Shown here: piece after piece, positions 38,398 through 58,054 of the stretch
How the letters are laid out: the number at the start of each line of letters is the position of its first letter
How positions within the stretch are numbered: the first letter of the stretch is position 1
Origin: an uncultured Gammaproteobacteria bacterium
GTDB taxonomy: Bacteria > Patescibacteriota > Patescibacteriia > Magasanikbacterales > UBA922
DNA length: 64,000 nt
Reading direction: 5' to 3'
Assembly (NCBI GenBank): GCA_964522435.1
Contig: CAZFUL010000004.1
Coordinates: 54,360-118,359, forward strand
Notes under the pieces: model-generated
The model's input: only the letters and a program-made list of their open reading frames with translations
Told to the model about the DNA's origin: nothing
Database searches by the model: none
Made by a program: the position numbers and the translations under genes

Positions 38398-39105
38398 ATG
38401 GATGAGGTTACGCGTTCGACCACACCACTGAGCACGCATCAAAAAGCAGGCTTTGTGCTCTTGCTTGTTTTTGGTTTATTGGCTGTTGGATTAGGAGCCT
38501 TACAAATGAGAAATACGATTTATAGTCCCTTTGCCTATAAATCACCAACTACGATCGCGCGTACCACAGAGGATTTATTACAAGATGAAACAATTCGATT
38601 ACAATCAATTGATACGGATCAAGATGGTCTGAGTGATTATGAAGAATTGTATTTTTATCAAACCAGTCCGTATATTCCCGATACAGATTCTGATGGCATA
38701 TCAGATAAAGCCGAATTAGATGCCTCAAGTGACCCTACTTGTCCGCAAGGAGCGGTGTGTGATGGCTCGGATCAATTTTTTACCTCACAAGCAAGTAGTA
38801 CCGCAACAACTCCTATGGGGATTCCAAGCGGGTTAGGGGCTGATGGTATTTTGCGCCAAGTAGATACGAGTATTGCGCAAGGTCAAGAAGTAGATTTGGG
38901 TGCGTTGCTTGGCAATGTTGACGCGGTACGAGAAATTATTGCGCAAACAGGAAAAATTCCCAAAGAACAATTAGACCAAATTGATGATCAAACATTATTG
39001 AATTTGGTTATTGAAATAATGGCAGAAGAAGAGACGTCACCGGCTGTCCCATTGCCGACAGAGGAAGCGTCTGCGTCAACAACGTTTGACACAACACTGC
39101 CTTGA
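38398..39105 (+). CDS. Membrane-anchored protein with two canonical EF-hand-type calcium-binding loops
   Basis: TM segment AGFVLLLVFGLLAVGLGALQM. DTDQDGLSDYEE and DTDSDGISDKAE both fit DxDxDGxxxxxE exactly. Acidic C-terminus. Immediately precedes the giant ORF. Confidence 0.55.
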   Translation: MDEVTRSTTPLSTHQKAGFVLLLVFGLLAVGLGALQMRNTIYSPFAYKSPTTIARTTEDLLQDETIRLQSIDTDQDGLSDYEELYFYQTSPYIPDTDSDGISDKAELDASSDPTCPQGAVCDGSDQFFTSQASSTATTPMGIPSGLGADGILRQVDTSIAQGQEVDLGALLGNVDAVREIIAQTGKIPKEQLDQIDDQTLLNLVIEIMAEEETSPAVPLPTEEASASTTFDTTLP

Positions 39106-39122
39106 TATTATCTAGCTACTTT

Positions 39123-42100
39123 ATGAGAAAATTGTTTCCTGTTGCTCTTGTCTGTCTTTTTATCATCATGCAATTGTTTGGGGTATTTTTATTTGCCCAA
39201 CCAGCAAAAGCAGTATTTGGTGCAGGAGATATATCTTTTGATCCTCAAGCCTGGATACAACGAGAGAAGCATTATGCCGGAGATAAAGTAGAAGCAACCG
39301 TTACAGAGAGTGTTTTGTCTGCGGTCATGGGTTCTTTATTACATGCAACATCCTACTTTACGAGAAAATTGGCCTATGACGCAGCACTCTATGTTGCCTA
39401 TGGGGGAAAAGGACAAGGGTCGTTAGCCTACAAAGAGGGGGCGGCTGCGTATTTTGAAAAAGTGTCTAAAGATACGGCGGCAGATGCTATTGGTGAGTTG
39501 GGAAAACCATTTGGTTTAAATTTGTGTCAGATTCCCGATCTTCGCTTAAATATTTTTCTTCAAGTTGGCTTATCTAACCGATTTGCCGTAGAACCCACCC
39601 CCAATTGTCGCTGGCAAGATTTAAAAGAAGGCGGTATTTTTGATGGGGCTGCCTGGGTACAACGTTATGGAACAGAAGAGGGATTAGCAGAAACCTTTAG
39701 TGCGACCTTAAGTGTTGATAATACTGATTTTGGTATTGCCCTAGGCGCCATTGGACAAATTAGTGATTTGCAAGCGGGCGCAGAAGCAGCAGCGCGTCAA
39801 GACAGAACAGAAGGGCAAGGCTTTAAACCGTTGACCAGTCTTATTTCAGGTGATATTAAAACTCCCGCACAAATTGTGCGAGAAGAAACAAATGCGTTGA
39901 CGGCAAAACATCAAGGAGAATTATCTGCTGGGCAAATTGCCGGTATTTATGGCAGTGGGTTAAAGCAAGTTCCTGCCATGGCCGCGTCTGTCTTTTTAAA
40001 TAGTTTAACAGCAACATTATTAAATCGTTTACTCACAGAAGGGTTATTTCCAGAAGGAAGTGATGCGCCGGGCTTTCAATCAGGGGTGTTTTCATATACC
40101 TCGTCGCCATTTACGCAAAATTCACGAGCAAGAAATGCGTTTAGCTTTTTATTAACTATTCGACCAGAACAGTTAACTAACTTTAACATTGTGGCAGAAT
40201 TTGCCGCATGTCCAGAACACCCTGGGTTAAATAATTGTGTTATTGATAGTGACTTACAACAAGCCTTGGTTCAAGCAAAATCTGGGACTCCCATGACAAT
40301 TCAGGAGGCAATAGATATTGGCTATTTAAATAAAGATTGGCCCCTTATTTCACCACGCAATAATCAACATACCATTGAAAATTGCCAAGTGGGAAGATAT
40401 TGCTATTCCAATATTCAAAAAATGAGAAAAGTTCGCATCTTGCCTTTGGGATTTGAAATTGCAGCATTGCGTTCTGATCCAGATAATCCCTGGACATTAG
40501 GTCAAGTGGTACAAGGATTTGAAAAATGTAGACGAGATGACCCAAATAATCCAGATGCAATAACACCTGATCCTGCGTTTCCTTTTTGTCATTTAATTAA
40601 TCCAAATTGGACAATTGCGGTACCGTCAACTCGTTGTGAATTAAATACCTATGGTCCACAATTACATGCAGAAGATTCTCCAAGTCGTCGTCGAGAATGT
40701 ATGGATATCTCTACCTGTTTGGCAAAAGGGCCAAATGGAGAATGTATTGATCATGGCTACTGTACAAAAGAAAAAAATGTTTGGGATTTAAATGCGGATA
40801 CTTGTCCTGCGTATTACAATAGTTGTGATACCTATACAAACACGGAAGATCGTTTTATTGCGTCATATTTAACACGCAGTTTAGATTTTGGTCAATGTAC
40901 TGCTGACACGGTAGGCTGTCGCGCATTTAGTTTAGAACAAATTGCCGAAGATAATTGGGAATCTTCTGCAGCGGACCGTCGATTAGCCTATGTTGCACAA
41001 GGAAGAAACGAACGGATTCACTTTACCGATGCGATTACTGCCATCAGTTCTGTTTGTAGTGCCGCAAGTGATGGTTGTCGTGCGTTTATCCCTGCCGCGC
41101 GTTATATTAATGGTTTGTTTGTTCAAAATGAACAAGGCGCATATCAACAACAAGAGGATACAAGTACGTTATTGCACTTGAAACGGGCACCAGACTATTT
41201 GGGTTGTTATGATACCAATAGAGCAGCGAATTCTCCAGAAATTAATTGGCCAACAACGGTACAAGAAGCACAAAATGTTGTTGCGCAAGATGCTCGATGT
41301 GATGCGTATGCGTCTGTTTGTGTGGAAGAAGAAGTTGGTTGTTCTGCCTATCAACCAACAGAAGGTGGTGTAGAAATACCTGGTGTTATTGGGGCACAAA
41401 ATGTTTGTGATGCAAGTTGTGTTGGGTATGATACCTTTAAACAATTGGGCTATGCTGATGTGGGACAAGGATTTGAAGATCCGGTATTTCCCTTGTACTT
41501 TATTCCTCGTATTGCAGAAGAACAAATGGCAGCACAAGGAACAATTTGTAGCGCAGAATTTGTTGGCTGTGACGAATTTACCAATCTCGATACTGTTGCA
41601 AATGGGGGAGAAGGCTTAGAATATTACACGTCGTTAACCCATTGTGAACAGCCAAGTGCTGATGGGGCAAATAGTCGGGTGTATTATTCTTGGGAAGGGT
41701 CTGTTCGTGAAGGATTCTTATTACAAACACATCGCGTTAAACCGATTGATGAACGAGATTTGAGTTATATTCAAGATACCTTAGAAATAGACGTTGACTT
41801 TAATTATTCTTTGGGTTCACCCATGTATGCGAATGATTCTCGCGATGCGCTTGCTAGTGCGTCTGCGCGTTGTAATGAACAAACCTATAACCTAAAAATA
41901 AATAATCCAGGTGATCTTAATAGTGCTCCAGATAACTGTCATGCGCTGTATGACACCGATGGGAATGTTTTTTATCGATTGGTTGGAGAATTAGTTGTGG
42001 TTTCTGATGCCTGTCATGCACTCCGAAAAACAGAGCCAGAAATTTATGCAGATACCACATTAGAACAACGTAGCTGTAGTGCTGATCGTGGAGAATGGAA

Positions 42101-45100
42101 TGCTGCAGAAAATAGTTGTACCCGTTGTGTGGGTGGTGGTGAATATCGTAATGGTGCTTGTATTTATTGGACTATTTCTGATACAACAACACAGTCACAA
42201 TCTTGTCCTGCACAAGCAAATGAATGTCGCGCGTATGCAGGAAACAATGCAGGAAATAGGGTAAATATTTTATCGCAACTTTTTGAACCAAGTAGTGAAG
42301 ATGCCAATGCCTTAGTGCAAGCCCAAGATGGATGGGAAGGATTAGTGGGCTCTGTGGTACGGGTTGTTTCTGATGCTAGTGATGTAGGGCTGCATTCATT
42401 ATTGTTAGAACAGGGCCGAGCGCGTATGCCATTATCTCCAACGAGCACGCCAGGACTGGTAAGTAATCAACGCTATGAAATAACGTTTTGGGCGCGCGGA
42501 GATGCGGGAACCATTCGTTTAGACGTCGTACAAAATAATAATCGACTTGCTACCTTTGCAGAGCAGGTGAGTATTGGAAATTCTTGGAATCGCTATCGTG
42601 TGGGACCTATTGATATTGGCACTATTGCCTCTGATCAACCGCTGTATTTGGTTATTACACCAAATGATGGAAACAACCGAGTATTTTTAGATACCTTTGT
42701 CTTTACTCGTATTCAAGATGTTGTGTACCTTACCAAGGATTCTTGGAAAACACCCGAAGGCTACAATGCGCCACTGTTGTGTGATGCGGTTCCCCAAGAT
42801 ACGCTTCCTGGCGAAGCATTGGGTTGTCGTTCGTATCAAGAAGTAAACGCAAAAGGGGTAAGCCGGTATGCAACTGGTTTTGAACGACTCTGTCGTGAAA
42901 AAGCGGTTGGTTGTATGCCCGTATGGGACACCTACAATACGGTAAGTGGGGAATCACCAGAGTTACCTCATGTGTATAATGTGTGGTGTGCGGGTAACGA
43001 AGGCGCAAATTGTGAAATTCGGGTAAATAATATTTTGCTTGGCGCTTGTGTTGTTGAACGTGGTTCAGTAAATAACGACGGGCAAAGTGGTTGTTATATT
43101 CGAGATAATGATAGTTTGGATATTGCCTTACCTCAAGGCATCACGATTGCGAATTTGCCTGCGGGATCTGTAAGTGATTCAACGGTGTACATTCCTGCGG
43201 ATACGCCAAGCTCAACACCCCTCTTTTTAGCGAATACAGAAAAACATCGTTGTCAGGAGTCTCAATTAGGTTGTGAACTAACCGGCGCAGAGCAACAATT
43301 ATTACCAGATCCAACGGTTGCTGTTTCTTATGAACACCAAGAAACACGAATAAAAAATGATCCTGCTTCATATAATGAGGTACTATGTAACGATACCTTA
43401 ATTGGTTGTGGAGAATTTGACCATGCGGGAGCACGCTCATTTTTTAGAGATCCCCGCTTTACTGGGAATGCTCTTTGTTCGTATCGAGAACAAAGCGACG
43501 ATGGACAAAATTATGGTTGGTATATTAATGACCAAAGTGTTGGTCGCTGTAGTCAGAGCGATACGCTTTGTCGTGAAGATGGAGACTGTTCTGGCGCAAA
43601 CGATCTTTGTGTGAGTAAGGGCAATGTTGCTTGTTATGACGATTTTGTTCAACGTGGTGGAGAATTTGGATTACGCAGTAATGGCTCTCCCGAGTACGCA
43701 GGCTTTGTTGGTACTTGCCCTGCGCAGTTTAACGAATGTACCCAATTGGTTGATCCAGAAGATACCTCAAATATTAATCCCAAAGGCCAACCGTACTATG
43801 TGGTATTTAACGATAAAATCACCAACAGATTAGGACAATGTAATACCGTCAGTCTAGAAGAGGGCTGTGTGTTATTTGATAAAACCGATGATCCAAATAA
43901 ATTGTATAATGCCTCAGCAACCTACGCATTGAGTACAACACAAGATCCTCCGTATGGCCCTGTTGCGCCAGTAACCACCGCAAGTAATAATGACCCAAGT
44001 AGTATTAATACGAACTTGTTATTAAAGGTAGATAGAGATAGAGCATGTAGTGAGTGGTTAGATTGTAAAAACTATGTTCCGGTTACTAATGCACAAGGAC
44101 AGCAAGAATTTTTGTGTTCACAGTATAAAGCCTGTGAAAAATTGAGCCCAGATGGTCGCTGTATTGGCTGGGTAGATGATTTAGCGACTCCAGAAGATAG
44201 AACACGAGCCACAGATCGCTTGACCTATGAACAATATATACAACGAGGCACGTCTTGGTATGCGGAAGAATTTAGTGGATATTCGTTATACGACAAATAT
44301 CAAATTACCAATTTAGCCCAACTTGCATTTAATTTTGAAGAATTAAACGACGACGTTGCTGCCGCGCTTGTGCCAGTAACAAATGAAACATTTATTGCTC
44401 GTGTGCTCGATGATCGGTTATTCCGTTATAACAATGCGGAAGATTTGGACTGTATTGATGAAACCGTGACCTCAACAGATTGGCTCTCCTGTGGATTTGA
44501 CAATCAAGGGTTATGTTATAGAAAAAAATGTGTGTATCCAATAGATGGTGGCTTTGGTTTGGATGAGGTTGATACCACAAATGTGGCAGATATTCAGCGA
44601 TCACTCAACTTGCTTGAAGCAAACTCATGTAAAGGTTTCCCTGAAGAAGAAAGTCCTTTTTCTCAACGGATTATTCCTCCAGGAGGCATTCTTGATAGAG
44701 TATCTCAGTATGGCCTGAGAAAAGAGTTTGTCAAATACAATCAGGGATATGCGAATATTAATGTTTGCCAAAGTGGTGAATGTTCTTGTGAGTATCAAAA
44801 GGTATCATACAATCATGGCGTTGTTGATTATATTTCGTTTAATGACGCTGCGCAATCAACAATTGTTGGAATTTGTTCCGGAGGAGACGCGACTACTGCG
44901 GGATTACCCTGTACTCGTGATAGTGAATGTATTGGGCGAGGGGCAGCGAATCAGGGTGATGTTGCTCAAACAGGGACCTGTAATTTAGTGCGCGAAACAC
45001 AAAGTGTCTTTGGCTTACGTGGCTTTTGTTTAGAGCGAGACCTTTCTCGTCCATCTCCAGTGGACCCAAGTGGTTATGAATGTCTTACCTGGTTACCAGT

Positions 45101-48155: not shown

Positions 48156-48160
48156 CAAAA

Positions 48161-48191
48161 TAAAAAATCCCGATTCAATCGGGATTTTTTA
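48161..48191. terminator. Bidirectional intrinsic terminator after the giant gene
   Basis: aaaaaaTCCCGAttcaaTCGGGAtttttt. Confidence 0.8.
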
Positions 48192-48269
48192 TAGGACAGA
48201 ACAGAAAATAGCTTTTCTCCTTTGTCCTTTCTCCCGCCACAGTGTTGTGGCGGGGGTTGCAGAAGAGCA

Positions 48270-48842
48270 CTACTCGGACATCGAGCAGGTGGCTTCTGCA
48301 GTCATTGTGGGTCGTTCCGCGAAGATGGGTGGTCCATTGGGGCTATCGCGATGAAAGTCCCAGGTACAGTCCACGTCTTCATTCAACGAGAGCCATCCAT
48401 ATCGAGGCGTGGCTTGAGCAGAGTGGCCACAATACGCCCATCCTTCACGCAAAGTGGTGGTTGGGCACATGCAGGCCTCTCCTTCGCCGTTGTTGTCGCT
48501 GTCGAGCTGGTCGGGGTTCGGCACCTCGGGGCAGTTGTCGCAGGCATCGCCTACGCCATCACCGTCCGTGTCGGTCTGGTCGGGGTCGGGGTCGGCGGGA
48601 CAAATGTCCTCGCCGTCCTCGATCCCATCCGCGTCGTCATCGGGGGGCGGTGGCGGGGGGCAGTCTTCGCTGCACTCCGGGGGAGTGACGAGACAGCCTT
48701 GGGCTTCGTCCGCCTTGCCGTTGCAGTTGTCGACGGGGGGCATGGTGACCCCCCGACGCGGCTCGGAGGGGTCACCCTCGTCGCCGCAGCCACTGATGAC
48801 CGCCCCGAGCAGGGCGGCCAGAACCAGCGCAAAATAGCGCAT
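48270..48842 (-). CDS. Lipoprotein with thrombospondin type-3 calcium-binding repeats, encoded in a GC-rich island
   Basis: AAGGAGG, 5 nt, then [23 protein letters not shown] is a lipobox signal. [13 protein letters not shown] linker. TSP3 consensus [34 protein letters not shown]. Extreme GC3 bias. The longest ORF extends to 48935, but the SD and signal peptide favour 48842. Confidence 0.6.
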
Positions 48843-48963: not shown

Positions 48964-49307
48964 ACGTTCAGTTCTCCTTAGTCGAAGAAGGCAACAACGA
49001 TAGAATTCTTTTATTGAAAAAGAACAAGAGGTAAAATTATTCTGTATAAATTAACTATTTCAGCAAAATTTGGCTTTGTCAAGCGCTTTTTATTGTTTTG
49101 TGGATAACTTGGTTACGAATCTACATCTGCCTGCCGGTAGGCAGGAATGAACACTCATTTACAAATAACTACAAATGTTCTTCGACAATATTCGTAGCCA
49201 TTTGTAGATTGGCATGTATTCGTATATTCGGAAATAGTAGATTCGTAAACTGTCTGTATGTTTATACACTGCATACCTATGCGACCTATTCTGCCCCATT
49301 CGCTTAT

Positions 49308-49338: not shown

Positions 49339-52293
49339 ATGGCTGAACACATAAAACAATTTACTCGCTTATCATATGCACGCATAGTCCGTCTGTTACC
49401 CAGTCGGCGTTTTCGCTTATTTAGTCTTATTTCTCTTGCACTTATTGTTATTTCTACGGTATTTATTTGGGCAGCACCTTCTTTTGCGCAAAATGTCCCG
49501 GTATCCGGAATTGGTGATGCCATTATTCGCTCATTGGTGTGGCTCATGCTGCAGTTGGCAACCGTGTTTATTCAGCTTACCATATTTTTATTGCGCTTTT
49601 TTATTTTAATTGCGGGGTATAATGATTATATTAATGCCCCGGTCGTATTATTGGGTTGGAACATGTTGCGTGATATTGCAAACATGTTTTTTATTGTGAT
49701 TTTAATGGTGATTGCCTTTGGCACCATGCTTGGTTTAGAACAGTATGAATGGAGAAAGTCATTGGTAAAGTTAGTTATTGCTGCCATTTTAGTCAATTTT
49801 AGTAATTTAATTGTGCAAGTCATGATAGACGTGGCACAAGTATTTACCATTACCTTTTTAAACGCGGTGGCTGGGGCAGCAGGGGGCAACCTGATTCAAA
49901 TGTTTAACTTTGATAAATTATTTGAAATTGTCGTTGGCAGTCCAGAAGATGTGAGTGGAGATTTACTCTTGAATTTGTTTGGGGCGGGCGTTATTTCGTT
50001 AGTGTTTGCGGGCATGGCCATGTTTACCATGCTTGCCTATGTGGTGGTGTTGTTAGCGCGTATGGTGGTGTTGTGGATGGGGATTATTTTGTCTCCCCTC
50101 ATGTTTATGTTTAGCGTATTACCGCAAACAAAAAAATATGCAGATGAATATTGGTCTGAAATAATAAATCATATTATTGCCGCGCCAGTGATGGTGTTCT
50201 TTTTGTGGCTATCGTTTGCTACCTTTGGGGGCAACCAAGGCGCTATTGCCCATATAGAAGATAATAATGCCATTAAAACAGCCCAAGGCAGCGGCTATTT
50301 ATCCAGTGCAGAAACCATAGGCGGCAGTAAACCGGCTATTGCGGGAATTAGTCAAGCGGGTACCCCAGAAAATATGGCTAATTTTGCAGTGGCCTTGGCC
50401 TTTTTATGGTTAGGGGTAGAACGGGTGCAAAAATTGGGCGTCAAAGGCGGCAGCTTACTATCAAAAGCAACCAACTTTGCTGGGAATGTTGCCACCATTG
50501 CGACCGGCTACGCTGCTGGCCGTTGGTTAGTTGGCAAAGGCACTGATGCGAGTATTGGATCACTCAAATATGTTGGGAATAGAATTCCTTTGGTTGGGGG
50601 TGCATCACTTAAAAATTATGGCGCAGCAATTTCGAGTACTTTTCAACGCAAAGGTGCGTTGGGCGTGTTAACTGCCGGAAATTTTTCTGGTATTGGTGGG
50701 GCGCAGAGTAAAATTAGAGCATCTGAACGAGCAAAGAACTGGGAAGAAAATGGCTTCTACAAAGGGACCGGTGGTCGTGCGGTTGGTTGGTTGGCCGCGC
50801 GGGTGTGGGAACCGTCTGAGCGAGCAGAAAAGCGGAGTCAAGATTGGGCTGCGGCGGCTGAACGCGTGAAAAAAATCCAAGAAGAATCATACTCAACCAG
50901 TGGCAGTCGTGCGGGGCAAGCAAAATTAGATGCCACTGTTGAGTTGAAAAAAGTAGAAGAAAAAGCAGCAGCAAAAGGAGCGCAAAAAATAACAGAGCGG
51001 CTAAAAGAAGCACGAGAAATTAAAGAAATTTATGACAAGTTAAAAGATCAAAATAATCGTCTTCCTGCGGACACACAACGCTCTGAAAAAGAATTACGTG
51101 AGCAAACACAAGAAGCGTATTTAGAAAAAGTAGCGCGCGAAAAAGGAGCTTCTACCAAAGAAAAAACACAACGCTTATTAGAACGTGATGGAGGGGTCGC
51201 AAGTCGTTTAGAGTTAGCAAATAAAGTCGCGACTGAAATTAAATCGACGGTGGGCTCAAAAGCGGCAAGTGAAGAAGGGGATATGAAAGAGCGTCATTTT
51301 ATTGAAGAAGAACAAGCAAGAGCGCGAGATAAAATTCGTGCAGGACTAAATTTACCAGAAATTCATTTGCCTGCTTTCCGAGATAGATATCAAAAAGAAA
51401 TTGAAGAATCCATGTCTGGGTTAAATTTTCGTGAAATTACGCGTCAAGCAGGTAATTTTATGGCACAAGGGTTACGTTCTCCAGAAATTGCTCGTGCGGC
51501 GGCAGCAACGCTGTCTGTGGCAATGAAACGTGGCTCAGAAACCGGGATGGCTGCCTTTAATGAAATGTTAATAGGCTTAGGCTTTGATGATAATGCCGCA
51601 CAAAATGTTGCCGCAGATGATATGCAAGGAAAACAACGTTTGTTGTTATCTGCATTATTGGGTGAGCGAGTAACTGAAACAGATAATCTTGATCAAAAAA
51701 TGGCAGAATTTGAACAAAAAGTAGGTGGGCCAGAAGCTGCCCAAACTATTTTAAAAAATTTGGATAGTAACCTTAAAGTCGCGGCAGCTGATGGTGCGGT
51801 AAATATGGCTGGGTTGTTTGATGACCGAACCGTCGATGCAAATGGTAAATTAAAAATAAAATTAGAAACAGACACTGCGAAATTTAAAGGAAATCGTATG
51901 TATGCCGCTAATGTAAATAATATTACCAAAGCGACTGGAGTAGAGGATATGATTGGTGAAAAAGGTACCTTACAAAAAACAAAACGTGATGCGCAAGGAA
52001 GAAAAATCTTAGATAGTGCCGGTAACGCGATTATGGAAGACGATATTCAAGCACAAGAACAATTGGCAACATTCTTAAATTCTGCGAAGCAAAATACACG
52101 GTTTAGCTCATTTTTTGTGGAATCAATTGTGAGATTAAATCAAAATGATCAAGCCGGCTTACGAAAAGTATTAGATAAACTGAATCAAGAAGCGAGAGCT
52201 GCAATAGAAAAATTATTAACCGCTCCATCCCCCACAGGTTCCGCTGCAGCTGGAGGTGCACCAATTGGACCTGGTCCTGGTGCCGGACCATAA
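49339..52293 (+). CDS. VirB6/TrbL-like polytopic membrane protein with a long charged coiled-coil C-terminal extension
   Basis: At least 6 TM helices in the first 350 aa, in a TrbL/VirB6-like arrangement. They are followed by about 600 aa of K/E/A-rich predicted coiled coil and a Gly/Pro/Ala tail (GSAAAGGAPIGPGPGAGP). Lies in the VirB4 operon. Confidence 0.45.
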   Translation: MAEHIKQFTRLSYARIVRLLPSRRFRLFSLISLALIVISTVFIWAAPSFAQNVPVSGIGDAIIRSLVWLMLQLATVFIQLTIFLLRFFILIAGYNDYINAPVVLLGWNMLRDIANMFFIVILMVIAFGTMLGLEQYEWRKSLVKLVIAAILVNFSNLIVQVMIDVAQVFTITFLNAVAGAAGGNLIQMFNFDKLFEIVVGSPEDVSGDLLLNLFGAGVISLVFAGMAMFTMLAYVVVLLARMVVLWMGIILSPLMFMFSVLPQTKKYADEYWSEIINHIIAAPVMVFFLWLSFATFGGNQGAIAHIEDNNAIKTAQGSGYLSSAETIGGSKPAIAGISQAGTPENMANFAVALAFLWLGVERVQKLGVKGGSLLSKATNFAGNVATIATGYAAGRWLVGKGTDASIGSLKYVGNRIPLVGGASLKNYGAAISSTFQRKGALGVLTAGNFSGIGGAQSKIRASERAKNWEENGFYKGTGGRAVGWLAARVWEPSERAEKRSQDWAAAAERVKKIQEESYSTSGSRAGQAKLDATVELKKVEEKAAAKGAQKITERLKEAREIKEIYDKLKDQNNRLPADTQRSEKELREQTQEAYLEKVAREKGASTKEKTQRLLERDGGVASRLELANKVATEIKSTVGSKAASEEGDMKERHFIEEEQARARDKIRAGLNLPEIHLPAFRDRYQKEIEESMSGLNFREITRQAGNFMAQGLRSPEIARAAAATLSVAMKRGSETGMAAFNEMLIGLGFDDNAAQNVAADDMQGKQRLLLSALLGERVTETDNLDQKMAEFEQKVGGPEAAQTILKNLDSNLKVAAADGAVNMAGLFDDRTVDANGKLKIKLETDTAKFKGNRMYAANVNNITKATGVEDMIGEKGTLQKTKRDAQGRKILDSAGNAIMEDDIQAQEQLATFLNSAKQNTRFSSFFVESIVRLNQNDQAGLRKVLDKLNQEARAAIEKLLTAPSPTGSAAAGGAPIGPGPGAGP

Positions 52294-52312: not shown

Positions 52313-53386
52313 ATGTCTATGACCAAAGAAATTTTTTCTCAAATTCAACCACTCTCTTCTAGTCAGCTGCGTGAAGCCGATGATCTTTTTTTTGAGTTAC
52401 GTGGTTCGATAGAAGAAAGCGAAACACTGTGGCAAGCCCTAGACACAGGAATTGCCTCAATGAATGCTGCAACGCTGTATACCTTTCGTCAGAGTTATTT
52501 GCGTTGGTATACCATACTGAGTTGGGATTTGTTATTGAGTAGAAGTAAAGAGGTTCTCCCAAGAATATGCCAAACAACACTGGTGACTGCGGTAAGAGAA
52601 GATATTCCTGTTTGGAAAAAATTTATTGAGTATTTGCATAGTAATAGTTTGGACGAAGATGATATGCAAGCGGTGTATGCAACTGTTCGCGATCTGTTAC
52701 TTCGGTCTGATCAAATTGTTTGTTATCTTAAAGGTGAAGCAGTTACCTTAGAAACCTATATGGTAACCGTGAGTTCTTTTGAACAACGCGAAGATACCTT
52801 AGGGTTATCGCAATACTATAGTGATGTGCAACATGCCTTAGTACAAGATGCTGAGGTGGTACATATAGAGGTGGATGCAAAGCAGATGATGGCATCTATT
52901 CAGGACTTTTTTCATTTTTTGCAAGGGGTATTGCCAGAAAATATTTTTTATATCGTGGATGCGCATATGTATCCACAAAAATATGATGAATCATTCCGCA
53001 ATGCACAACCCGCTGCTCCTATAACCGATATGGTTGATGATATGTTAGAAACAGCAGCAGCTGTTCCTGATTTATTGGATACCTGGGTAGCCCAAGTGTC
53101 AGCGCATAAAAGCGATATCATCGCCTGGTTGGCGAATGATCAAACACAAGAGCAACTTGTGTATGCCTGCCAATCCCTTAAAAATCCCGTACAAGCACGG
53201 CAACGCCTTGCGGCGACCTTTCAACAGGTATTTCCGGATATTCATGAACAAATGGACATTGCGGGGGCTATTGTCGAACTCGACAGCTTTTTGCAAGAAC
53301 AAGGGATAACAGCAACAAATGACTTTTTGTATTTTGATGATACGGATGCAGGATTTCATTGGCATGAAGAGTATAAAACACCATAA
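52313..53386 (+). CDS. Hypothetical acidic protein (T4SS-like locus)
   Basis: 357-aa ORF, 20 nt after the VirB6-like gene. No recognisable motif. Confidence 0.4.
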   Translation: MSMTKEIFSQIQPLSSSQLREADDLFFELRGSIEESETLWQALDTGIASMNAATLYTFRQSYLRWYTILSWDLLLSRSKEVLPRICQTTLVTAVREDIPVWKKFIEYLHSNSLDEDDMQAVYATVRDLLLRSDQIVCYLKGEAVTLETYMVTVSSFEQREDTLGLSQYYSDVQHALVQDAEVVHIEVDAKQMMASIQDFFHFLQGVLPENIFYIVDAHMYPQKYDESFRNAQPAAPITDMVDDMLETAAAVPDLLDTWVAQVSAHKSDIIAWLANDQTQEQLVYACQSLKNPVQARQRLAATFQQVFPDIHEQMDIAGAIVELDSFLQEQGITATNDFLYFDDTDAGFHWHEEYKTP

Positions 53387-53389
53387 TAT

Positions 53390-54445
53390 ATGCCTCAAGA
53401 CATGCACGCCTCACCTGCAACGATACCGGTAAAAAAAGAAGATGGAACAACGGTGCGGATGACCTTAGAACAATTACGCATATACCAAAAGCAACAAAAA
53501 CAACAATCTGTTGGTTCTTTGGCTTCACCAAGTAATCAAGTAAAAACGAATTCGTTACAATCGATTGCACAGCTAACAGAGCGGCTAAAACAAGGGGCAA
53601 TTGCTCGCCCCGTGCCACCCAAAGCACAAAGTACACCAGCAAAAAAAGAAAGCACATTGACCCTGCACGCAGTACAAAAAAAATTATCTCCTATAGCTAT
53701 TGATGCAGGTCAACAAGTAAACGACGTTGCAACCGCAAAACAAGAAGCGCTGGTATCACAAAAAAGTGCGGTTCCTGCGCTGCGCACCAAATCGATGGCA
53801 TTATCAACCACAACACCAGTACCCAATGCATTTATACAAGAAGCCGTAGCCCATATCTGGGATAAAGACGATCATGTATCGTTGTTAGATGAAACACTGC
53901 ATCAAGATTTTCTCGCACCTGCACAACCGTTGATGACAGCAACCGCTGCAGGAGCAACAGCAAAAGCGGGGGGACAATCCGCAGTTCCTGTACAAACTAG
54001 CTCAGCCCAATTTTCTGATACCACCATGCGACAATCGCTTCATACGCGTACAAGTATTCAAGATGTACAACCAAAAAAAATTGGGGTGGTGCCGCGAACG
54101 CTTGATTCCACGTATGAACAGACAAAAACAACAATGGGCCCGCTTGATGAGTTAGCCCAATTTACCGTGATAGATTTTCGCCGTTTATCAAAAACGCCCA
54201 TGGACGCTGCTGCGCAGATATTGAAAAAATTTGATATACTAAAACAAGAGTCGTACTTATTATATTTAGACGCAAGACAGGCATGGTGGAAAAGTCCGTT
54301 GTATACCCAATATATAGCGCTTATGACGAGCGCGTTACTGCAACTGCAACCAATCACCGAACTCTATGGATCGGCAGGGGATACCGAACAGCTGATGCAG
54401 GAAGAATATGAAGCGATTATTGCCATTAACCGTCGACTCAATTAA
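53390..54445 (+). CDS. Hypothetical Ala/Thr/Gln-rich protein (T4SS-like locus)
   Basis: 351-aa ORF, 4 nt after the previous gene. Low-complexity middle region. Confidence 0.4.
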   Translation: MPQDMHASPATIPVKKEDGTTVRMTLEQLRIYQKQQKQQSVGSLASPSNQVKTNSLQSIAQLTERLKQGAIARPVPPKAQSTPAKKESTLTLHAVQKKLSPIAIDAGQQVNDVATAKQEALVSQKSAVPALRTKSMALSTTTPVPNAFIQEAVAHIWDKDDHVSLLDETLHQDFLAPAQPLMTATAAGATAKAGGQSAVPVQTSSAQFSDTTMRQSLHTRTSIQDVQPKKIGVVPRTLDSTYEQTKTTMGPLDELAQFTVIDFRRLSKTPMDAAAQILKKFDILKQESYLLYLDARQAWWKSPLYTQYIALMTSALLQLQPITELYGSAGDTEQLMQEEYEAIIAINRRLN

Positions 54446-54448
54446 GCT

Positions 54449-54883
54449 ATGCAGCAATTTATTGTTCCACAATTTATTGATGTTGAAGATAAAATTTTTG
54501 GACCAATTACTACCAGACAGTTTTTGATTTTGCTCATAGCGGGAGGCATTATTTATTTATCCTTTGAATTATTTGATTTTGCCTTATTTCTTATTATTGC
54601 TATTTTTTTAGGCGGCTTTTCGTTGGTGTTAGCGTTTATAAAAATTAACGGACAAGCATTTCATTATTTTTTATTAAATATTTTTGAAAGTTTTCATAAA
54701 CCTGCTCGGCGTATGTGGCAAAAATCATATTCCAAAAAAGAATTGGATATGCTCCGAAACGCGGTTGTGGAATTTGTTTCAGAAAAAACAGCGGTGACGC
54801 CGGTGCGTCGTGAGCGTATTCGTGATCTATCTTTGCTGGTAAATACGGGCGGCTATTATCGTCCGGATGATGATATTGTGTAA
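54449..54883 (+). CDS. Small two-TM membrane protein, PrgI/VirB3-like
   Basis: 144 aa. Hydrophobic hairpin (FLILLIAGGIIYLSFELFDFALFLIIAIFLGGFSLVLAFI). Positioned just upstream of VirB4, as VirB3/PrgI are in Gram-positive T4SS. Confidence 0.4.
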   Translation: MQQFIVPQFIDVEDKIFGPITTRQFLILLIAGGIIYLSFELFDFALFLIIAIFLGGFSLVLAFIKINGQAFHYFLLNIFESFHKPARRMWQKSYSKKELDMLRNAVVEFVSEKTAVTPVRRERIRDLSLLVNTGGYYRPDDDIV

Positions 54884-54889
54884 AGCACT

Positions 54890-55576
54890 ATGGCAAAAAA
54901 TCAAGCAAAAAAAACAGCAAATAAAAAAGCGTCAACACAAGCTCATCTTCCGATTGCCGAAGTAAAAGACAGTGTGGTGATTATGAAAGACGGAACACTG
55001 CGGGCAGTTATGATGACCTCGAGTATTAATTTTGCCTTAAAATCAGAAGATGAACAAAATGCCTTAATTTCTTCGTATGTGGGATTTTTAAATGGGCTTG
55101 ATTTTCCTTTACAAATCGTCGTGCAATCACGGCAATTACAAATTCAGCCCTACATTGATAAATTGTTGCAACGAGAACAAACGCAAAAAAATGAATTATT
55201 GCGCATTCAAATTGCCGATTATCGTGCCTTTGTGCAAGAGTTGGTAGATATTGGTCAAATTATGACCAAACGCTTTTATGTTGTGGTTCCCTATGATCCC
55301 TTATCAAATAAAAAGAAAAGTTTTTGGACACGCATGAAAGAAGCCTTAAAACCAACCGTGAGTATTCGATTAAAAGAAAAACGATTTTTAGAACGAAAAG
55401 AAAGTTTGCAAGTGCGGGTGCGTCAGGTAATTCAAGGATTAGAAAGTATGGGGCTGCAAGTAGTCCTCCTTGATACGCAAGCCTTAATTGAATTGTACTA
55501 CAGTAGTTATAATCCCGATATTGCCTTTAATCAACCCATGAGACCGCTCGATGAATTACAAATTGAAGAGTTGTAA
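54890..55576 (+). CDS. VirB4/TraC N-terminal domain, split from the ATPase by an in-frame TAA
   Basis: LPIAEVKDSVVIMKDGTLRAVMMTSSINFALKSEDEQNALISSYVGFLNGLDFPLQIVVQSR resembles VirB4 N-terminal regions. Same frame as 55586-57454, separated only by a TAA plus 9 nt. Confidence 0.5.
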   Translation: MAKNQAKKTANKKASTQAHLPIAEVKDSVVIMKDGTLRAVMMTSSINFALKSEDEQNALISSYVGFLNGLDFPLQIVVQSRQLQIQPYIDKLLQREQTQKNELLRIQIADYRAFVQELVDIGQIMTKRFYVVVPYDPLSNKKKSFWTRMKEALKPTVSIRLKEKRFLERKESLQVRVRQVIQGLESMGLQVVLLDTQALIELYYSSYNPDIAFNQPMRPLDELQIEEL

Positions 55577-55585
55577 TATACCTGT

Positions 55586-57454
55586 ATGGCATTTAAACCG
55601 ATTCAACAACATAATAACGAGCAAAAAAAACAACTCAAAGAGAGTGCTTTGCGTCGTTCAAAACAAGTACAGGAAGATGTAATTTCTCTTGAAGAGGAAC
55701 GGGTGTACCGAGAAGGAACCGTCACTATTCGTGATTTGATTGCTCCCTCTGCGCTGCGTATTGATTCTACCTATCTTCAGTTAGGAGAAATTTATGTACG
55801 CACCTTTTTTGTTGTTACGTATCCACGCTATATTGCGGTTGGCTGGAGCGCACCTATCCTCAATTTGAACATCACCATGGATATTAGCATGTTTTTTTAT
55901 CCGGTAACCTCTGGCATTATTTTAAAACAGCTTAAGAAAAAAGTAGGCGCGATTCAAGCACAAATTAGTTCTGATGTAGAAAAAGGAGCGCCCCGCGACC
56001 CCATGAGAGAAACGGCGTTACGAGATATTGAACAACTGCGCGATGATTTGACCCAAGGGGTGGAACATTTTTTTCAATTTGCCTTTTATGTCACGGTGTA
56101 TGGAAAAAATAAAGACGAATTAGACAAAATGTCTGAAACGGTTGAAAATATTTTTGGTTCTCGTTTGATTTACAGTAAACATGTGTTGTATCAAGCAGAA
56201 CAAGGATTTACGTCTACACTGCCACTCGGACTTGATGAACTCATGATTCAGTTTAACATGAATTCGTCTCCTATTGCCTCGTCATTTCCTTTTATTTCTT
56301 CTGAGTTAACGAGTGATGATGGTATTTTGTATGGGATTAATCGTCATAACAATAGTCTTATTTTATTTGATCGCTTTTCACTGCAAAATGCGAATATGGT
56401 GGTATTTGCTACTTCTGGTGCAGGAAAGTCCTATGCCGTAAAACTAGAAGTATTGCGTAGTCTTATGATGGGGATTGATGTTATTATTATCGATCCAGAA
56501 AAAGAATATGAACACTTAACAGAAGCGGTCGGTGGAACTTATGTCAACATTTCGCTTTCTTCAGAAAGCATGGTCAATCCATTTGATTTACCCCGTCCAC
56601 TCGCCGGGCAACAAATTGCGACGGAAGATATTATCCGCAGTGCCGTCATCACCATTAAGGGCTTGATTCGTATTATGTTTGGTCAAATGACCACGGAGCA
56701 AGATTCTATTATGGATCGCGCGCTGTTGGAAACCTATGCCAAAAAAGATATTACGAGTAGTGCAGACTTAAGTCGTGTTGAACCCCCAATCATGCAGGAT
56801 TTGCTCGATGTGTTAGAAGGAATGCAAGGCGCAGAAGAATTAGTCGTAAAATTACAAAAATTTACCACAGGAACATTTTCTGGGTTGTTTAATGCGCCCA
56901 CAAACGTCAACATTAATAATCAATTAGTGGTATTTAGTGTTCGTGATTTAGAAGATGAGCTTCGTCCCATGTCTATTTATTCGTTGATTAATTATATTTG
57001 GAACGTGGTGAGAAGTGAAAGAAAAAAACGTTTGCTTATTATTGACGAAGCCTGGTGGCTCATGACCAATGAAGATAGTGCAAAATTTATTTATGCGCTG
57101 GTAAAACGTTGTCGCAAATATTATTTAGGGGTAACGACTATTACCCAAGACGTGAATGACTTTTTAGGCTCGCCCTATGGCCGCGCTATTGTGACCAATT
57201 CTGCATTGCAATTACTACTTAAGCAATCACCTGCCGCAGTTGAGCTGGTACAAAAAACCTTTATGCTCACAGAAGGGGAGCGCTATCTGTTATTAGAAAG
57301 TGCCGTGGGAGAAGGGATTTTCTTTGCCGGATTAAAGCATGCGGCAATTAAAGTGGTTGCGTCCTATACAGAAGATCAGTTGATAACATCAGATCCAAAA
57401 CAATTATTGGATATTGAACGGGCGAAAAAAGAATTTGAACAAGAAATGAAGTAA
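55586..57454 (+). CDS. Type IV secretion/conjugation ATPase, VirB4/TraC/PrgJ family (C-terminal two-thirds)
   Basis: Walker A VVFATSGAGKSYAVK. Walker B LLIIDEAWWLM. VirB4-type middle domain (TYLQLGEIYVRTFFVVTYPRYIAVGWSAPILN). Lacks about 200 N-terminal residues, which the upstream ORF supplies. Confidence 0.9.
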   Translation: MAFKPIQQHNNEQKKQLKESALRRSKQVQEDVISLEEERVYREGTVTIRDLIAPSALRIDSTYLQLGEIYVRTFFVVTYPRYIAVGWSAPILNLNITMDISMFFYPVTSGIILKQLKKKVGAIQAQISSDVEKGAPRDPMRETALRDIEQLRDDLTQGVEHFFQFAFYVTVYGKNKDELDKMSETVENIFGSRLIYSKHVLYQAEQGFTSTLPLGLDELMIQFNMNSSPIASSFPFISSELTSDDGILYGINRHNNSLILFDRFSLQNANMVVFATSGAGKSYAVKLEVLRSLMMGIDVIIIDPEKEYEHLTEAVGGTYVNISLSSESMVNPFDLPRPLAGQQIATEDIIRSAVITIKGLIRIMFGQMTTEQDSIMDRALLETYAKKDITSSADLSRVEPPIMQDLLDVLEGMQGAEELVVKLQKFTTGTFSGLFNAPTNVNINNQLVVFSVRDLEDELRPMSIYSLINYIWNVVRSERKKRLLIIDEAWWLMTNEDSAKFIYALVKRCRKYYLGVTTITQDVNDFLGSPYGRAIVTNSALQLLLKQSPAAVELVQKTFMLTEGERYLLLESAVGEGIFFAGLKHAAIKVVASYTEDQLITSDPKQLLDIERAKKEFEQEMK

Positions 57455-57475
57455 CTATATTTATACTATATATCT

Positions 57476-58054
57476 ATGGAATTTTCAGAAAAAAAACGAG
57501 TGATTATATTTATCTCCGTTATTGTCGGATTACTTGCCGCACTCGTCCTTATTATATTGGTTGTATTGCGGATGCGTGCAAACAGTCCAACAACTACGAT
57601 CGAAAATACCGATACGGTAACAGCTCCGCTCGGTGATACCTTTACTGGAACAGAAGGGTTATTGCCTCCTCCTGTTGAACCGGTTGTACCAGAAGATGCA
57701 CAAGAACGTTATGTAAAACAGGTATCAGAAATTTTTGTAGAACGTTTTCAAACCTATTCTTCTCATAATGATAATAGTCATATTAATGATGTGCTTGGCT
57801 TAGTTACCACACGTATGGCTGCTTGGGTAGAAAGTCAAACAGCTACCCAACAACGAGATTATCAAGGAGTAACAACACAAGTTATTTCTCGTCGTGTTAC
57901 TTCATACACCGCAAATAGCGCTGCAACCGTAACGATTGGTGTACAACAAGTGGTAGAAGATACGACAGGACAAAAAACAGTGTACAAAAATGGACGAGTG
58001 GAATTATTGTTTACTGATGGAGAGTGGAAAGTAGATGGATTATTTTGGGAGTAA
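57476..58054 (+). CDS. Bitopic membrane protein (VirB8/TcpC-sized), hypothetical
   Basis: N-terminal TM segment (VIIFISVIVGLLAALVLIILVVL) then a roughly 150-aa extracytoplasmic domain. Last gene of the T4SS-like operon. Confidence 0.35.
   Translation: MEFSEKKRVIIFISVIVGLLAALVLIILVVLRMRANSPTTTIENTDTVTAPLGDTFTGTEGLLPPPVEPVVPEDAQERYVKQVSEIFVERFQTYSSHNDNSHINDVLGLVTTRMAAWVESQTATQQRDYQGVTTQVISRRVTSYTANSAATVTIGVQQVVEDTTGQKTVYKNGRVELLFTDGEWKVDGLFWE

What the first reader, a model, noticed from the sequence alone, without database searches (positions are those of the whole stretch)
38398..58054. Minimal T4SS-like module coupled to a 3017-aa cysteine-rich secreted giant protein
One co-directional gene string carries a VirB4-family ATPase with Walker A/B motifs and the VirB4 middle domain. 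It also carries a VirB6/TrbL-like 6-TM protein with a 600-aa coiled-coil tail, a PrgI/VirB3-like two-TM protein and a VirB8-sized bitopic protein. These are preceded by a membrane-anchored EF-hand protein and a 9-kb gene for a disulfide-rich secreted giant protein. ComFC (DNA uptake) follows directly. No relaxase, coupling protein (VirD4) or VirB11 lies in the window, so this does not look like a conventional conjugative element. The composition is the native AT-rich one, so the locus looks resident rather than recently acquired. Two mid-sized unknowns (52313-54445) are candidate novel structural components. This would fit a contact-dependent attachment, secretion or DNA-uptake apparatus of an epibiotic or small-genome bacterium.
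Basis: partly seen in the sequence, partly recalled or inferred. Interest (0 to 1): 0.85.

Follow-up and report, generated by a model that had tools for sequence, protein, structure and literature searches.

The report
Known CPR secretion system beside giant protein
This is the chromosomal type IV secretion system already described for ultra-small Patescibacteria (here a Magasanikbacteria relative), lying next to a separately transcribed gene for an undescribed 3,000-residue cysteine-rich secreted protein whose link to the secretion system is plausible but not shown.

Summary
[quoted passage not shown] An extended VirB6/TrbL, two unknown proteins, PrgI/VirB3, a split VirB4 (TrsD-like fragment plus ATPase), a VirB8-fold protein and ComF form one tight operon.

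This operon is conserved in order across about 55 Magasanikbacteria loci. It matches the published Patescibacteria T4SS (Wang 2023; Quiñonero-Coronel 2025), including the missing relaxase and coupling protein, the TrsD split and the comF linkage in class ABY1. That part is already known.

The giant protein belongs to a lineage-wide family of 2,500-3,300 residues, with about 90 invariant cysteines and a weak carbohydrate-binding domain. It has its own module: an upstream membrane-anchored protein with calcium-binding repeats, and a downstream convergent lipoprotein gene of anomalous 64% GC.

In this window a bidirectional terminator and that opposite-strand gene separate the giant gene from the T4SS operon. 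The two are adjacent in 22 of 55 informative loci. Elsewhere they lie 13 kb or about 380 kb apart, and the shared block also holds unrelated housekeeping genes.

Functional coupling is therefore possible, perhaps as the missing adhesin, but unproven. Structure prediction gave no fold match for the giant protein.

The parts
38398..39105 (+). Small protein with an N-terminal membrane anchor and two bacterial thrombospondin type-3 (calcium-binding) repeats. It is the conserved upstream partner of the giant gene.
   Evidence: Pfam TSP3_bac 3.9e-7, 30.2 bits against a gathering score of 25. One hydrophobic segment at residues 14-39; sequence. A 200-240 aa ORF sits directly upstream of the giant gene in L081, L083, L084, L086 and L088; in L085 a PMT_2 gene intervenes. 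It shows TSP3_bac hits in L083, L084, L086 and L088, but none in L081 or L085.
39102..48155 (+). Giant secreted cysteine-rich protein (3,017 aa). It has an N-terminal signal peptide ending in an AXA motif (AKA, then VF), a conserved Cys-poor domain predicted as helical with low confidence (about residues 40-340), Cys-rich modules, a CBM_4_9-like domain (about 1075-1165), a variable region (about 2050-2300) and a conserved C-terminal region containing a DWGDG motif.
48160..48192 (.). Palindromic hairpin flanked by A and T runs. It looks like a bidirectional intrinsic terminator between the convergent giant and lipoprotein genes.
   Evidence: Terminator scan: 15-pair stem, 3-nt loop, T-tail. It lies 5 nt after the giant stop codon.
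48270..48842 (-). Small Cys-rich lipoprotein (190 aa, lipobox VISGC) with thrombospondin type-3 repeats. The gene converges on the giant gene and is 64% GC in a 40% GC genome.
   Evidence: Pfam TSP_3 9.3e-8 and NCBIfam MtsC 1.9e-13. GC profile. GC3 is 0.73, against 0.21-0.47 for every other listed gene except 16814-17479 (0.64). A convergent lipoprotein ORF was found in 13 of 18 other giant-bearing loci, mostly with GC3 0.63-0.86.
49014..49238 (.). AT-rich (30-39% GC) divergent intergenic region with promoter-like sites on both strands.
   Evidence: Seven sigma-70-like sites were found across the whole 47900-49500 scan, against 2.0 expected. Five of them lie at 49014-49238, including TTGACA-17-AATAGT on the minus strand. 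GC profile.
49339..52293 (+). Extended VirB6/TrbL-like polytopic membrane protein (984 aa). It has about 6-7 TM segments in residues 24-298 and a hydrophilic tail of about 600 aa.
   Evidence: Pfam TrbL E 7.8e-4 in the window protein; 27.4 bits (above the 25.9 gathering score) in homologue P0096. Hydrophobic segments. 336 homologues; all named hits are Magasanikbacteria or Patescibacteria.
52313..53386 (+). Conserved unknown 1 (357 aa, no TM segment). It is fast-evolving, with a C-terminal ...Y(F/Y)D..G.F.W motif.
   Evidence: tblastn detects it in 17 loci, and ORFs of similar size occupy the same position elsewhere. No Pfam or PDB relative. It also lies between the VirB6-like and giant-like genes in L069-L073 and L079.
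53390..54445 (+). Conserved unknown 2 (351 aa, no TM segment). It has a conserved N-terminal KK.DG motif and a C-terminal domain of about 100 aa.
   Evidence: Present directly upstream of PrgI in 55 of 80 loci, which is every locus where PrgI is seen. Alignment A3. No Pfam or PDB relative.
54449..54883 (+). PrgI/VirB3-like small membrane protein.
   Evidence: Pfam PrgI 1.8e-8, 35.2 bits against a gathering score of 27. Hydrophobic stretch at residues 24-68.
54890..55576 (+). TrsD-like protein, equivalent to a free-standing VirB4 N-terminal domain.
   Evidence: NCBIfam TrsD/TraD 1.9e-7; VirB4_plasma residues 92-233 at 9.6e-10; Pfam TraC_F_IV 4.9e-4. An in-frame TAA precedes the next ORF. The split is present in 54 loci. 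The database labels the orthologue PF26593 TraC-like.
55586..57454 (+). VirB4-family ATPase (C-terminal two-thirds of a canonical VirB4).
   Evidence: NCBIfam conju_CD1110 1.5e-103, 347.5 bits against a cutoff of 325. Pfam P-loop_TraG 8.7e-26, AAA_10 and DUF87.
57476..58054 (+). VirB8-like bitopic protein: an N-terminal TM helix, a Pro-rich linker and an NTF2-like domain.
58144..58863 (+). ComF-family phosphoribosyltransferase-like protein; last gene of the string.
   Evidence: TIGR00201 comF 6.4e-30; Pfam Pribosyltran and DZR_2. It follows the VirB8-like gene in 29 loci.
4269..5657 (-). Distant possible accessory: a 462-aa protein with a T4SS pilin (VirB2-like) domain.
   Evidence: Pfam T4SS_pilin 1.6e-7, 31.7 bits against a gathering score of 26.6. 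Its link to this locus is inferred only.
5664..6431 (-). DsbA-like thiol-disulfide oxidoreductase. It is a candidate for oxidising the Cys-rich secreted proteins.
   Evidence: Pfam Thioredoxin_4 4.6e-24 and DSBA 2.2e-15. The functional link is inferred.

Best explanation
The region holds two neighbouring but separately transcribed modules on the chromosome of a Magasanikbacteria-like (Patescibacteria, class ABY1) organism.

Module 1 (49339-58863) is the Patescibacteria-type T4SS, derived from the monoderm MPF_FATA conjugation machinery.
- Extended VirB6, PrgI/VirB3 and the VirB8-like protein form the membrane translocon.
- The TrsD-like fragment plus VirB4 form the ATPase.
- Two conserved cytoplasmic unknowns are lineage-specific accessory subunits.
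- ComF ends the operon.
- There is no relaxase or coupling protein, so it is not a conjugation system. By analogy with the essential T4SS of Saccharibacteria, it moves macromolecules between epibiont and host. This step is inferred.

Module 2 (38398-48842) has three parts:
- a Sec-exported giant protein, disulfide-rich and with a carbohydrate-binding-like domain;
- an upstream membrane-anchored calcium-binding repeat protein;
- a downstream convergent Cys-rich lipoprotein.
The most likely reading is a surface complex tethered by the two small membrane-bound partners, acting in envelope structure or host adhesion. This is also inferred.

The adjacency of the two modules is an old syntenic arrangement in this lineage that has been broken in many genomes. 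Cooperation between them (adhesin plus channel) is possible but not demonstrated.
For: T4SS identity: family hits for VirB4, TrsD, PrgI and TrbL and a VirB8-type fold.

Operon order VirB6-unk1-unk2-PrgI-TrsD-VirB4-VirB8like-ComF is conserved across Magasanikbacteria loci. Counts of 80 loci: 55 unk2, 55 PrgI, 54 TrsD, 52 VirB4, 35 VirB8-like and 29 ComF; the loci that lack them mostly end within or shortly after the VirB6 gene.

The literature describes the same system. It reports a monophyletic Patescibacteria VirB4 clade within MPF_FATA, TrsD next to VirB4, VirB8 homologues almost only in ABY1, comF near the T4SS in ABY1, ksgA nearby, and almost no relaxases (PMC12102498). The system is essential in Southlakia (PMC10633639; PMC12857230).

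The window has no relaxase, VirD4 or VirB11 and has housekeeping flanks.

Separate transcription: a terminator hairpin at 48160-48192, an opposite-strand gene and promoter-like sites.

Giant module: family size and invariant cysteines; CBM_4_9 in 4 of 16 members; signal peptide as the only hydrophobic segment. The flanking partners recur. A small ORF lies just upstream of the giant gene in every such locus, with TSP3_bac hits in L083, L084, L086 and L088 but none in L081 or L085. A small convergent ORF lies downstream where that flank is visible; it is a scored lipoprotein in L081-L084 and 9 other loci. This holds even where the T4SS is about 380 kb away. A DsbA-like gene is present in the window.
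Against: - No experiment or expression data exist for this lineage, so the direction and cargo of transport are unknown.
- The VirB8 call rests on a 4-sequence AF2 model (pLDDT 64) whose fold also matches non-T4SS NTF2 proteins.
- The giant protein's role is inferred from composition, one weak CBM hit and its neighbours. AF2 on residues 1-1150 was mostly low-confidence and matched nothing.
- Some loci put the giant gene directly inside the T4SS string: a gap of about 50-100 bp to virB6 in L046 and L060, PrgI then giant in L039, and VirB6-unk1-giant in L069-L079. This argues for a tighter link than 'mere neighbours'.
Confidence: 0.6

Rival explanations
1. The giant protein is a dedicated part of the T4SS: its adhesin or mating-pair-formation factor (a functional analogue of PrgB), a surface conduit, or a substrate. 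The small TSP3 protein and the lipoprotein anchor it beside the VirB6 channel.
For: - The giant gene is adjacent to virB6 in 22 of 55 informative loci, in at least four different gene orders. These are giant-lipoprotein-VirB6; giant directly followed by VirB6 (gaps of 77-336 bp); VirB6-unk1-giant; and PrgI-giant.
- The published survey found no PrgB-like adhesin in Patescibacteria, so that role is unfilled.
- The protein is secreted, disulfide-rich and has a carbohydrate-binding-like domain.
- The VirB6 here has a long extra domain that could dock partners.
Against: - In this window a terminator and an opposite-strand gene separate the two.
- In genome CAYMVY01 the giant module lies about 380 kb from the T4SS, and in CAZMHV01 about 13 kb away with other large genes between.
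- The conserved block also carries RF1, Sua5, DUF4015 and KsgA, so conserved order in these small genomes need not mean shared function.
- The giant protein has a Sec signal peptide, so it does not need the T4SS for export.
Confidence: 0.25
2. The T4SS module is a DNA-import (competence) machine, working like the archaeal Ced system or the Helicobacter ComB system and feeding DNA to ComF and the recombination proteins.
For: - ComF is the last gene of the string in 29 loci, and RecQ lies next to it.
- The paper notes comF, recG and radA near the T4SS in ABY1.
- VirB4 has a weak match to CedB (2.7e-15).
- There is no relaxase or coupling protein.
Against: - The best VirB4 matches are conjugative Gram-positive types (CD1110 at 1.5e-103) rather than CedB.
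- In Saccharibacteria, deleting comEC abolishes competence but not viability, while the T4SS is essential. There its essential role is therefore not DNA uptake through ComEC.
- Competence in that group depends on type IV pili.
Confidence: 0.12
3. The locus is a decayed integrative conjugative element whose relaxase and coupling protein lie outside the window or were lost recently.
For: The components are homologous to those of monoderm conjugation systems.
Against: - Both flanks are housekeeping genes for at least 38 kb upstream and 5 kb downstream.
- Composition is native, with GC3 0.24-0.35 across all T4SS genes.
- The same operon sits in the same chromosomal context in distant relatives.
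- The published phylogeny shows vertical inheritance within classes.
Confidence: 0.03

Closest known systems
Patescibacteria (CPR) chromosomal T4SS clade (Wang et al. 2023, Cell, PMC10633639; Quiñonero-Coronel et al. 2025, Microb Genom, PMC12102498)
   Same: It shares VirB4 with a separate TrsD-like N-terminal protein, PrgI/VirB3, VirB6 and a VirB8-like protein (the last reported mainly in ABY1). It also shares the lack of a relaxase or nearby coupling protein, the chromosomal location near ksgA, and comF in the neighbourhood in ABY1.
   Different: There is no VirB2-like pilin array inside this locus; one T4SS_pilin-domain gene lies 44 kb away. Two conserved unknown cytoplasmic proteins sit between VirB6 and PrgI. 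The neighbouring giant-protein module is not mentioned in those papers: a search of the paper for 'giant' and 'large protein' gave 0 hits.
MPF_FATA conjugative T4SS of Gram-positive plasmids (pGO1/pSK41 TrsC-TrsD-TrsE; pCF10 PrgH-PrgI-PrgJ-PrgL; C. difficile CTn2 CD1110)
   Same: It has the best VirB4 match (CD1110 family, 347.5 bits), the TrsD-type split, PrgI, and a monoderm architecture with no outer-membrane core.
   Different: It has no relaxase, coupling protein, cell-wall hydrolase or LPXTG adhesin in the locus. It is chromosomal and vertically inherited.
PrgB-type surface adhesins of Gram-positive conjugation systems
   Same: The giant protein is a large secreted surface protein encoded beside T4SS genes, and it is a candidate for cell-cell contact.
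   Different: No sequence or fold similarity was detected. It has no LPXTG signal, is about 2.3 times larger and is heavily disulfide-bonded. The linkage is facultative. The resemblance is functional speculation only.
Extended VirB6 proteins (for example Rickettsiales VirB6 paralogues)
   Same: It has a polytopic TrbL/VirB6 core followed by a large hydrophilic C-terminal extension; family members range from about 950 to 2,160 aa.
   Different: The tail sequence is unrelated. The host is a monoderm, and there is a single copy per locus.
Archaeal Ced and Helicobacter ComB DNA-import systems
   Same: These are VirB4-based machines without a relaxase and are associated with DNA-uptake genes.
   Different: There is only a weak CedB match (2.7e-15), and no CedA or ComB-specific components were found.

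Membership tests
Type IV secretion system (general) | VirB4-family ATPase with Walker A and B motifs | tested here: met
   NCBIfam conju_CD1110 scores 347.5 bits against a cutoff of 325, and Pfam P-loop_TraG gives 8.7e-26. SGAGKS and LLIIDEAW are present in the sequence.
Type IV secretion system (general) | VirB6/TrbL polytopic channel subunit | tested here: met
   The window protein scores 19.7 bits against TrbL, below the gathering score of 25.9. Homologue P0096 scores 27.4 bits (29% identity in alignment A1). There are 6-7 hydrophobic segments. Membership is met at family level and is marginal for this sequence alone.
Type IV secretion system (general) | VirB3/PrgI small membrane subunit next to VirB4 | tested here: met
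   Pfam PrgI scores 35.2 bits against a gathering score of 27. The gene lies immediately upstream of the TrsD and VirB4 genes.
Type IV secretion system (general) | VirB8-like bitopic protein with an NTF2-like domain | tested here: met
Conjugative T4SS / integrative conjugative element | Relaxase and type IV coupling protein (VirD4/TcpA) | tested here: not met
   None was found among the ORFs of at least 100 aa in the 64-kb window. Genes outside the window could not be tested.
Conjugative T4SS / integrative conjugative element | Foreign composition, integrase, patchy distribution | tested here: not met
   GC3 of the T4SS genes is 0.24-0.35, like the genome. The same locus and context occur in distant relatives.
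Patescibacteria T4SS clade (MPF_FATA-derived) | VirB4 clusters in the monophyletic Patescibacteria clade | not tested
   No phylogeny was built. Indirect support: the best NCBIfam matches are MPF_FATA types, and all close locus relatives are Patescibacteria.
Patescibacteria T4SS clade (MPF_FATA-derived) | Separate TrsD-like protein adjacent to VirB4, and no relaxase | tested here: met
.
Patescibacteria T4SS clade (MPF_FATA-derived) | VirB2-like pilin gene or genes near virB4 (common but not universal) | tested here: not met
   There is none between 49339 and 58863. One T4SS_pilin-domain ORF lies at 4269-5657.
Surface adhesin of a T4SS (PrgB-like) | Sequence or fold similarity to known adhesin domains, and cell-wall anchoring | tested here: not met
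Surface adhesin of a T4SS (PrgB-like) | Consistent genetic linkage with the T4SS | tested here: inconclusive
   The genes are adjacent in 22 of 55 informative loci and separated in 33. In two genomes the separation was measured at about 13 kb and about 380 kb.

The most novel reading that the evidence does not exclude
The giant cysteine-rich protein, with its membrane-anchored TSP3-repeat partner and its GC-rich lipoprotein partner, is the missing host-contact organelle of the ABY1/Magasanikbacteria T4SS. On this reading it is a calcium- and disulfide-stabilised, glycan-binding surface structure that docks the VirB6-based channel onto the host cell. It would take the role that pilin arrays play in Saccharibacteria and that PrgB plays in enterococci.
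Probability: 0.22. Interest if true: 0.65.

Novelty: new member of a known kind. Interest (0 to 1): 0.4.

Why it matters
The T4SS is essential for the epibiotic life of the only genetically tractable Patescibacteria, yet its cargo and its way of contacting the host are unknown. This window adds no new kind of machine.

It does give a clean, conserved parts list for the ABY1 version:
- two unknown subunits that are always present;
- a VirB8-fold protein;
- a split VirB4;
- ComF.

It also flags a lineage-wide family of giant secreted proteins that often sits beside the system. If that protein proves to be the contact factor, it would be a concrete handle on how these uncultivated bacteria attach to hosts.

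The repeated finding of small lipoprotein genes with GC content far above the genome average is an unexplained compositional oddity worth a separate look.

Tried and rejected
1. Alternative genetic code as the cause of the VirB4 split. Rejected: the stop is TAA, the 9-kb ORF is intact under table 11, and the split recurs in 54 loci.
2. Assembly chimera or one-off horizontal transfer as the cause of the 65-70% GC patch. Rejected as a sole explanation: the equivalent convergent lipoprotein gene is GC-rich in many other genomes.
3. Profile searches of the VirB8-like, unk1 and unk2 families against PDB sequences found nothing below E 0.2. Pfam scans of all members gave only 2 of 20 TraE hits for the VirB8-like family and nothing for unk1 or unk2.
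The homologue search for the VirB8-like protein returned only 4 sequences, so that model is shallow.
6. A lookup of the window's own VirB6 protein to name the source contig found no record.
7. Literature searches for a described giant or cysteine-rich protein in Magasanikbacteria or near CPR T4SS loci found nothing relevant.
8. Following the VirB6-unk1-giant arrangement downstream was blocked. The one contig recovered (L087) was only 9 kb.

Full report
**What is in the sequence**

Between 38398 and 58863 the plus strand carries the following ORFs:
- 235 aa (38398-39105)
- 3,017 aa (39102-48155)
- 984 aa (49339-52293)
- 357 aa (52313-53386)
- 351 aa (53390-54445)
- 144 aa (54449-54883)
- 228 aa (54890-55576)
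- 622 aa (55586-57454)
- 192 aa (57476-58054)
- 239 aa (58144-58863)

It encodes a 190-aa lipoprotein with lipobox VISGC, 13 Cys and thrombospondin type-3 repeats (Pfam TSP_3 9.3e-8).

**Identity of the T4SS genes**

- The 622-aa protein passes NCBI's curated cutoff for the CD1110 family of VirB4-like conjugal ATPases (347.5 bits against 325). It hits Pfam P-loop_TraG, AAA_10 and DUF87. Walker A (SGAGKS) and Walker B (LLIIDEAW) are readable in the sequence.
- The 228-aa ORF just upstream matches the N-terminal region of VirB4 proteins and the TrsD/TraD family. It ends in an in-frame TAA ten bases before the ATPase start. So VirB4 is split, as in staphylococcal pGO1/pSK41.
- The 144-aa protein passes the Pfam PrgI threshold.
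- The 984-aa protein has 6-7 hydrophobic segments in its first 300 residues and a weak TrbL/VirB6 hit. A family member passes the TrbL gathering score.
- The 192-aa bitopic protein gave no sequence-level match to solved structures, and only 2 of 20 relatives touched Pfam TraE. A shallow AlphaFold model (4 sequences, pLDDT 64) shows a TM helix, two helices and a four-stranded antiparallel sheet. The sheet is the confident part.
- The last gene is a ComF-family protein.

**Surroundings**

A Pfam survey of every other sizeable ORF in the window found only housekeeping functions:
- repair and DNA metabolism: UvrA, RecQ, photolyase;
- translation and folding: S2, EF-Ts, three aminoacyl-tRNA synthetases, GroEL, RF, Sua5, KsgA;
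- envelope: YidC, glycosyltransferases.

There was no relaxase, coupling protein or VirB11. RNase P RNA and one tRNA are also present. GC3 of the T4SS genes (0.24-0.35) matches the genome. The locus is resident, not a mobile element.

**Who it belongs to, and whether it is known**

Homologues of the VirB6-like and giant proteins that carry a source name come almost entirely from Candidatus Magasanikbacteria or unclassified Patescibacteria; one giant homologue is labelled Candidatus Nomurabacteria. A scan of species-representative genomes returned 80 loci. Those with an informative name are again mostly Magasanikbacteria or Patescibacteria, and many records carry only a generic 'uncultured Gammaproteobacteria' label.

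In those loci the order VirB6-unk1-unk2-PrgI-TrsD-VirB4-VirB8like-ComF is conserved. Of the 80 loci, unk2 and PrgI are each present in 55, TrsD in 54, VirB4 in 52, the VirB8-like gene in 35 and ComF in 29. Most loci lacking them end within or shortly after the VirB6 gene.

This is the system described by Quiñonero-Coronel et al. 2025. That paper reports:
- a monophyletic Patescibacteria VirB4 clade nested in the monoderm MPF_FATA class;
- TrsD as the most abundant partner next to VirB4;
- PrgI and VirB6;
- VirB8 homologues nearly confined to class ABY1;
- comF, recG and radA near the T4SS in ABY1, and ksgA nearby;
- relaxases almost absent.

Wang et al. 2023 showed the Saccharibacteria version to be essential for epibiotic growth, and noted the same lack of coupling protein and relaxase. 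A 2025 review summarises this. The core of the finding is therefore correct but already known. The two unknown proteins between VirB6 and PrgI are truly conserved operon members without any recognisable family.

**The giant protein**

- It has 109 cysteines, and its only hydrophobic segment is the N-terminal signal-like segment; it ends in an AXA motif (AKA, then VF).
- The protein database holds 254 homologues. The 120 listed are 2,535-3,367 aa, and only one carries a Pfam domain.
- The Cys-poor N-terminal domain (residues 41-340) finds 670 cluster representatives among 1.84 billion. In the 150 listed it is always at the N-terminus; most are 2,500-3,300 aa and the shorter ones are probably fragments.
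- The family is collinear over residues 1-2040 and 2300-3010, with a variable stretch between.
- About 90 cysteines are invariant in a 16-sequence alignment, which points to conserved disulfides.
- A CBM_4_9 carbohydrate-binding domain is hit weakly in 4 of 16 members (best 1.7e-5).

**Is the giant protein coupled to the T4SS?**

Evidence for coupling:
- A giant homologue lies next to a VirB6 gene in 22 of 55 informative loci.
- It does so in several gene orders: with the intervening convergent lipoprotein gene; directly abutting VirB6 (gaps of 77-336 bp in L060, L046, L028 and L023); after PrgI (L039); or as VirB6-unk1-giant in a divergent clade.
- The published survey found no adhesin for these systems.

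Evidence against coupling:
- In this window a 15-bp-stem bidirectional terminator sits 5 nt after the giant stop codon.
- The next gene is on the other strand.
- Promoter-like sites on both strands fill the AT-rich spacer before virB6.
- In one genome the giant module lies about 380 kb from the T4SS, and in another about 13 kb away.
- Distant relatives share not only giant-T4SS adjacency but the whole block RF1-Sua5-(DUF4015)-KsgA-small protein-giant-small minus-strand ORF-VirB6...VirB8like. Conserved order here therefore includes plainly unrelated genes.

What travels with the giant gene in every locus examined is a pair of flanking small ORFs:
- a 200-240 aa ORF just upstream, which carries TSP3_bac repeats in the window, L083, L084, L086 and L088 but shows no Pfam hit in L081 or L085;
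- a small convergent ORF downstream, scored as a lipoprotein in the window and 13 of 18 other loci.

I conclude that the giant gene belongs to its own three-gene surface module. Its adjacency to the T4SS is ancestral and frequently lost. Functional cooperation is a reasonable hypothesis, at about one chance in four, and not a result.

**Mechanism, with shown and inferred steps**

Shown by sequence and fold evidence: the components of a monoderm-type T4SS inner-membrane complex and its ATPase, and the absence of DNA-processing partners.

Inferred from relatives: the machine serves host interaction rather than conjugation.

Inferred from composition and neighbours:
- the giant protein is Sec-exported;
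- it is oxidised outside the cell; a DsbA-like gene lies at 5664-6431;
- it is held at the surface by the TM-anchored TSP3 protein and the lipoprotein;
- it binds glycans.

A DNA-import role for the T4SS, suggested by ComF and RecQ next door, cannot be excluded. It is disfavoured by the Saccharibacteria comEC result.

**Unexplained**

The lipoprotein gene after the giant gene is 64% GC (GC3 0.73) in a genome where every other listed gene but one (16814-17479) has GC3 of 0.21-0.47. Its counterparts in other genomes mostly show GC3 0.63-0.86 against locus GC of 0.36-0.48.

A second GC-rich island in this window (21900-22400) also encodes a small lipoprotein. No explanation was tested.

**Verdict**

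The headline 'coupling' to the giant protein is only partly supported. The giant-protein family and its partners are undescribed and moderately interesting.

Noticed in passing
window 48270-48842 (-); also L004, L013, L021, L042, L045, L058, L059, L081-L084: The small convergent lipoprotein gene after the giant gene is strongly GC-enriched. In the window it is 64% GC with GC3 0.73, against GC3 0.21-0.47 for every other listed gene except 16814-17479. In other genomes GC3 is 0.63-0.86. The enrichment is confined to the ORF. The sequences are too divergent to match each other by BLAST. The cause is unknown.
   Followed up: partly
window 21900-22460 (ORF 21983-22459, +): A second island of 59-67% GC, between tRNA-Leu and RNase P RNA, also encodes a small lipoprotein (MNRLFVLGMVLCLAVVGCCGSQ...). 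Both pronounced GC-rich islands noticed in this window therefore coincide with lipoprotein genes.
   Followed up: partly
window 16814-17479 (+): A 221-aa multi-TM membrane protein with no Pfam hit also has unusually high GC3 (0.64).
   Followed up: no
window 4269-5657 (-) and 5664-6431 (-): A 462-aa protein with a T4SS_pilin (VirB2-like) domain lies next to a DsbA-like thioredoxin, 44 kb from the T4SS operon. The pair may supply a pilin and the disulfide-forming activity needed by the Cys-rich secreted proteins.
   Followed up: no
L083 20686-25377 and 26883-29405; L088 502-6972: In related genomes other very large secreted-type proteins sit between or beside the giant gene and the T4SS. They are a 1,563-aa protein with a weak transglutaminase-core hit, a 1,747-aa protein with CBM_4_9, and a 2,156-aa alpha-2-macroglobulin. 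This suggests a chromosomal neighbourhood enriched in big envelope proteins.
   Followed up: no
L069, L070, L071, L073, L079: A divergent clade has the order VirB6-like, unk1-like, giant-like (26-29% identity to the window giant), with no VirB4 inside the part of the locus that is held. The giant-like gene fills that part up to the locus end, so what follows it could not be seen.
   Followed up: partly
window 54890-57454: The VirB4 split (TrsD-like ORF, TAA stop, then the ATPase ORF in the same frame ten bases later) is conserved in 54 related loci. It is a stable two-gene arrangement and not a pseudogene.
   Followed up: yes
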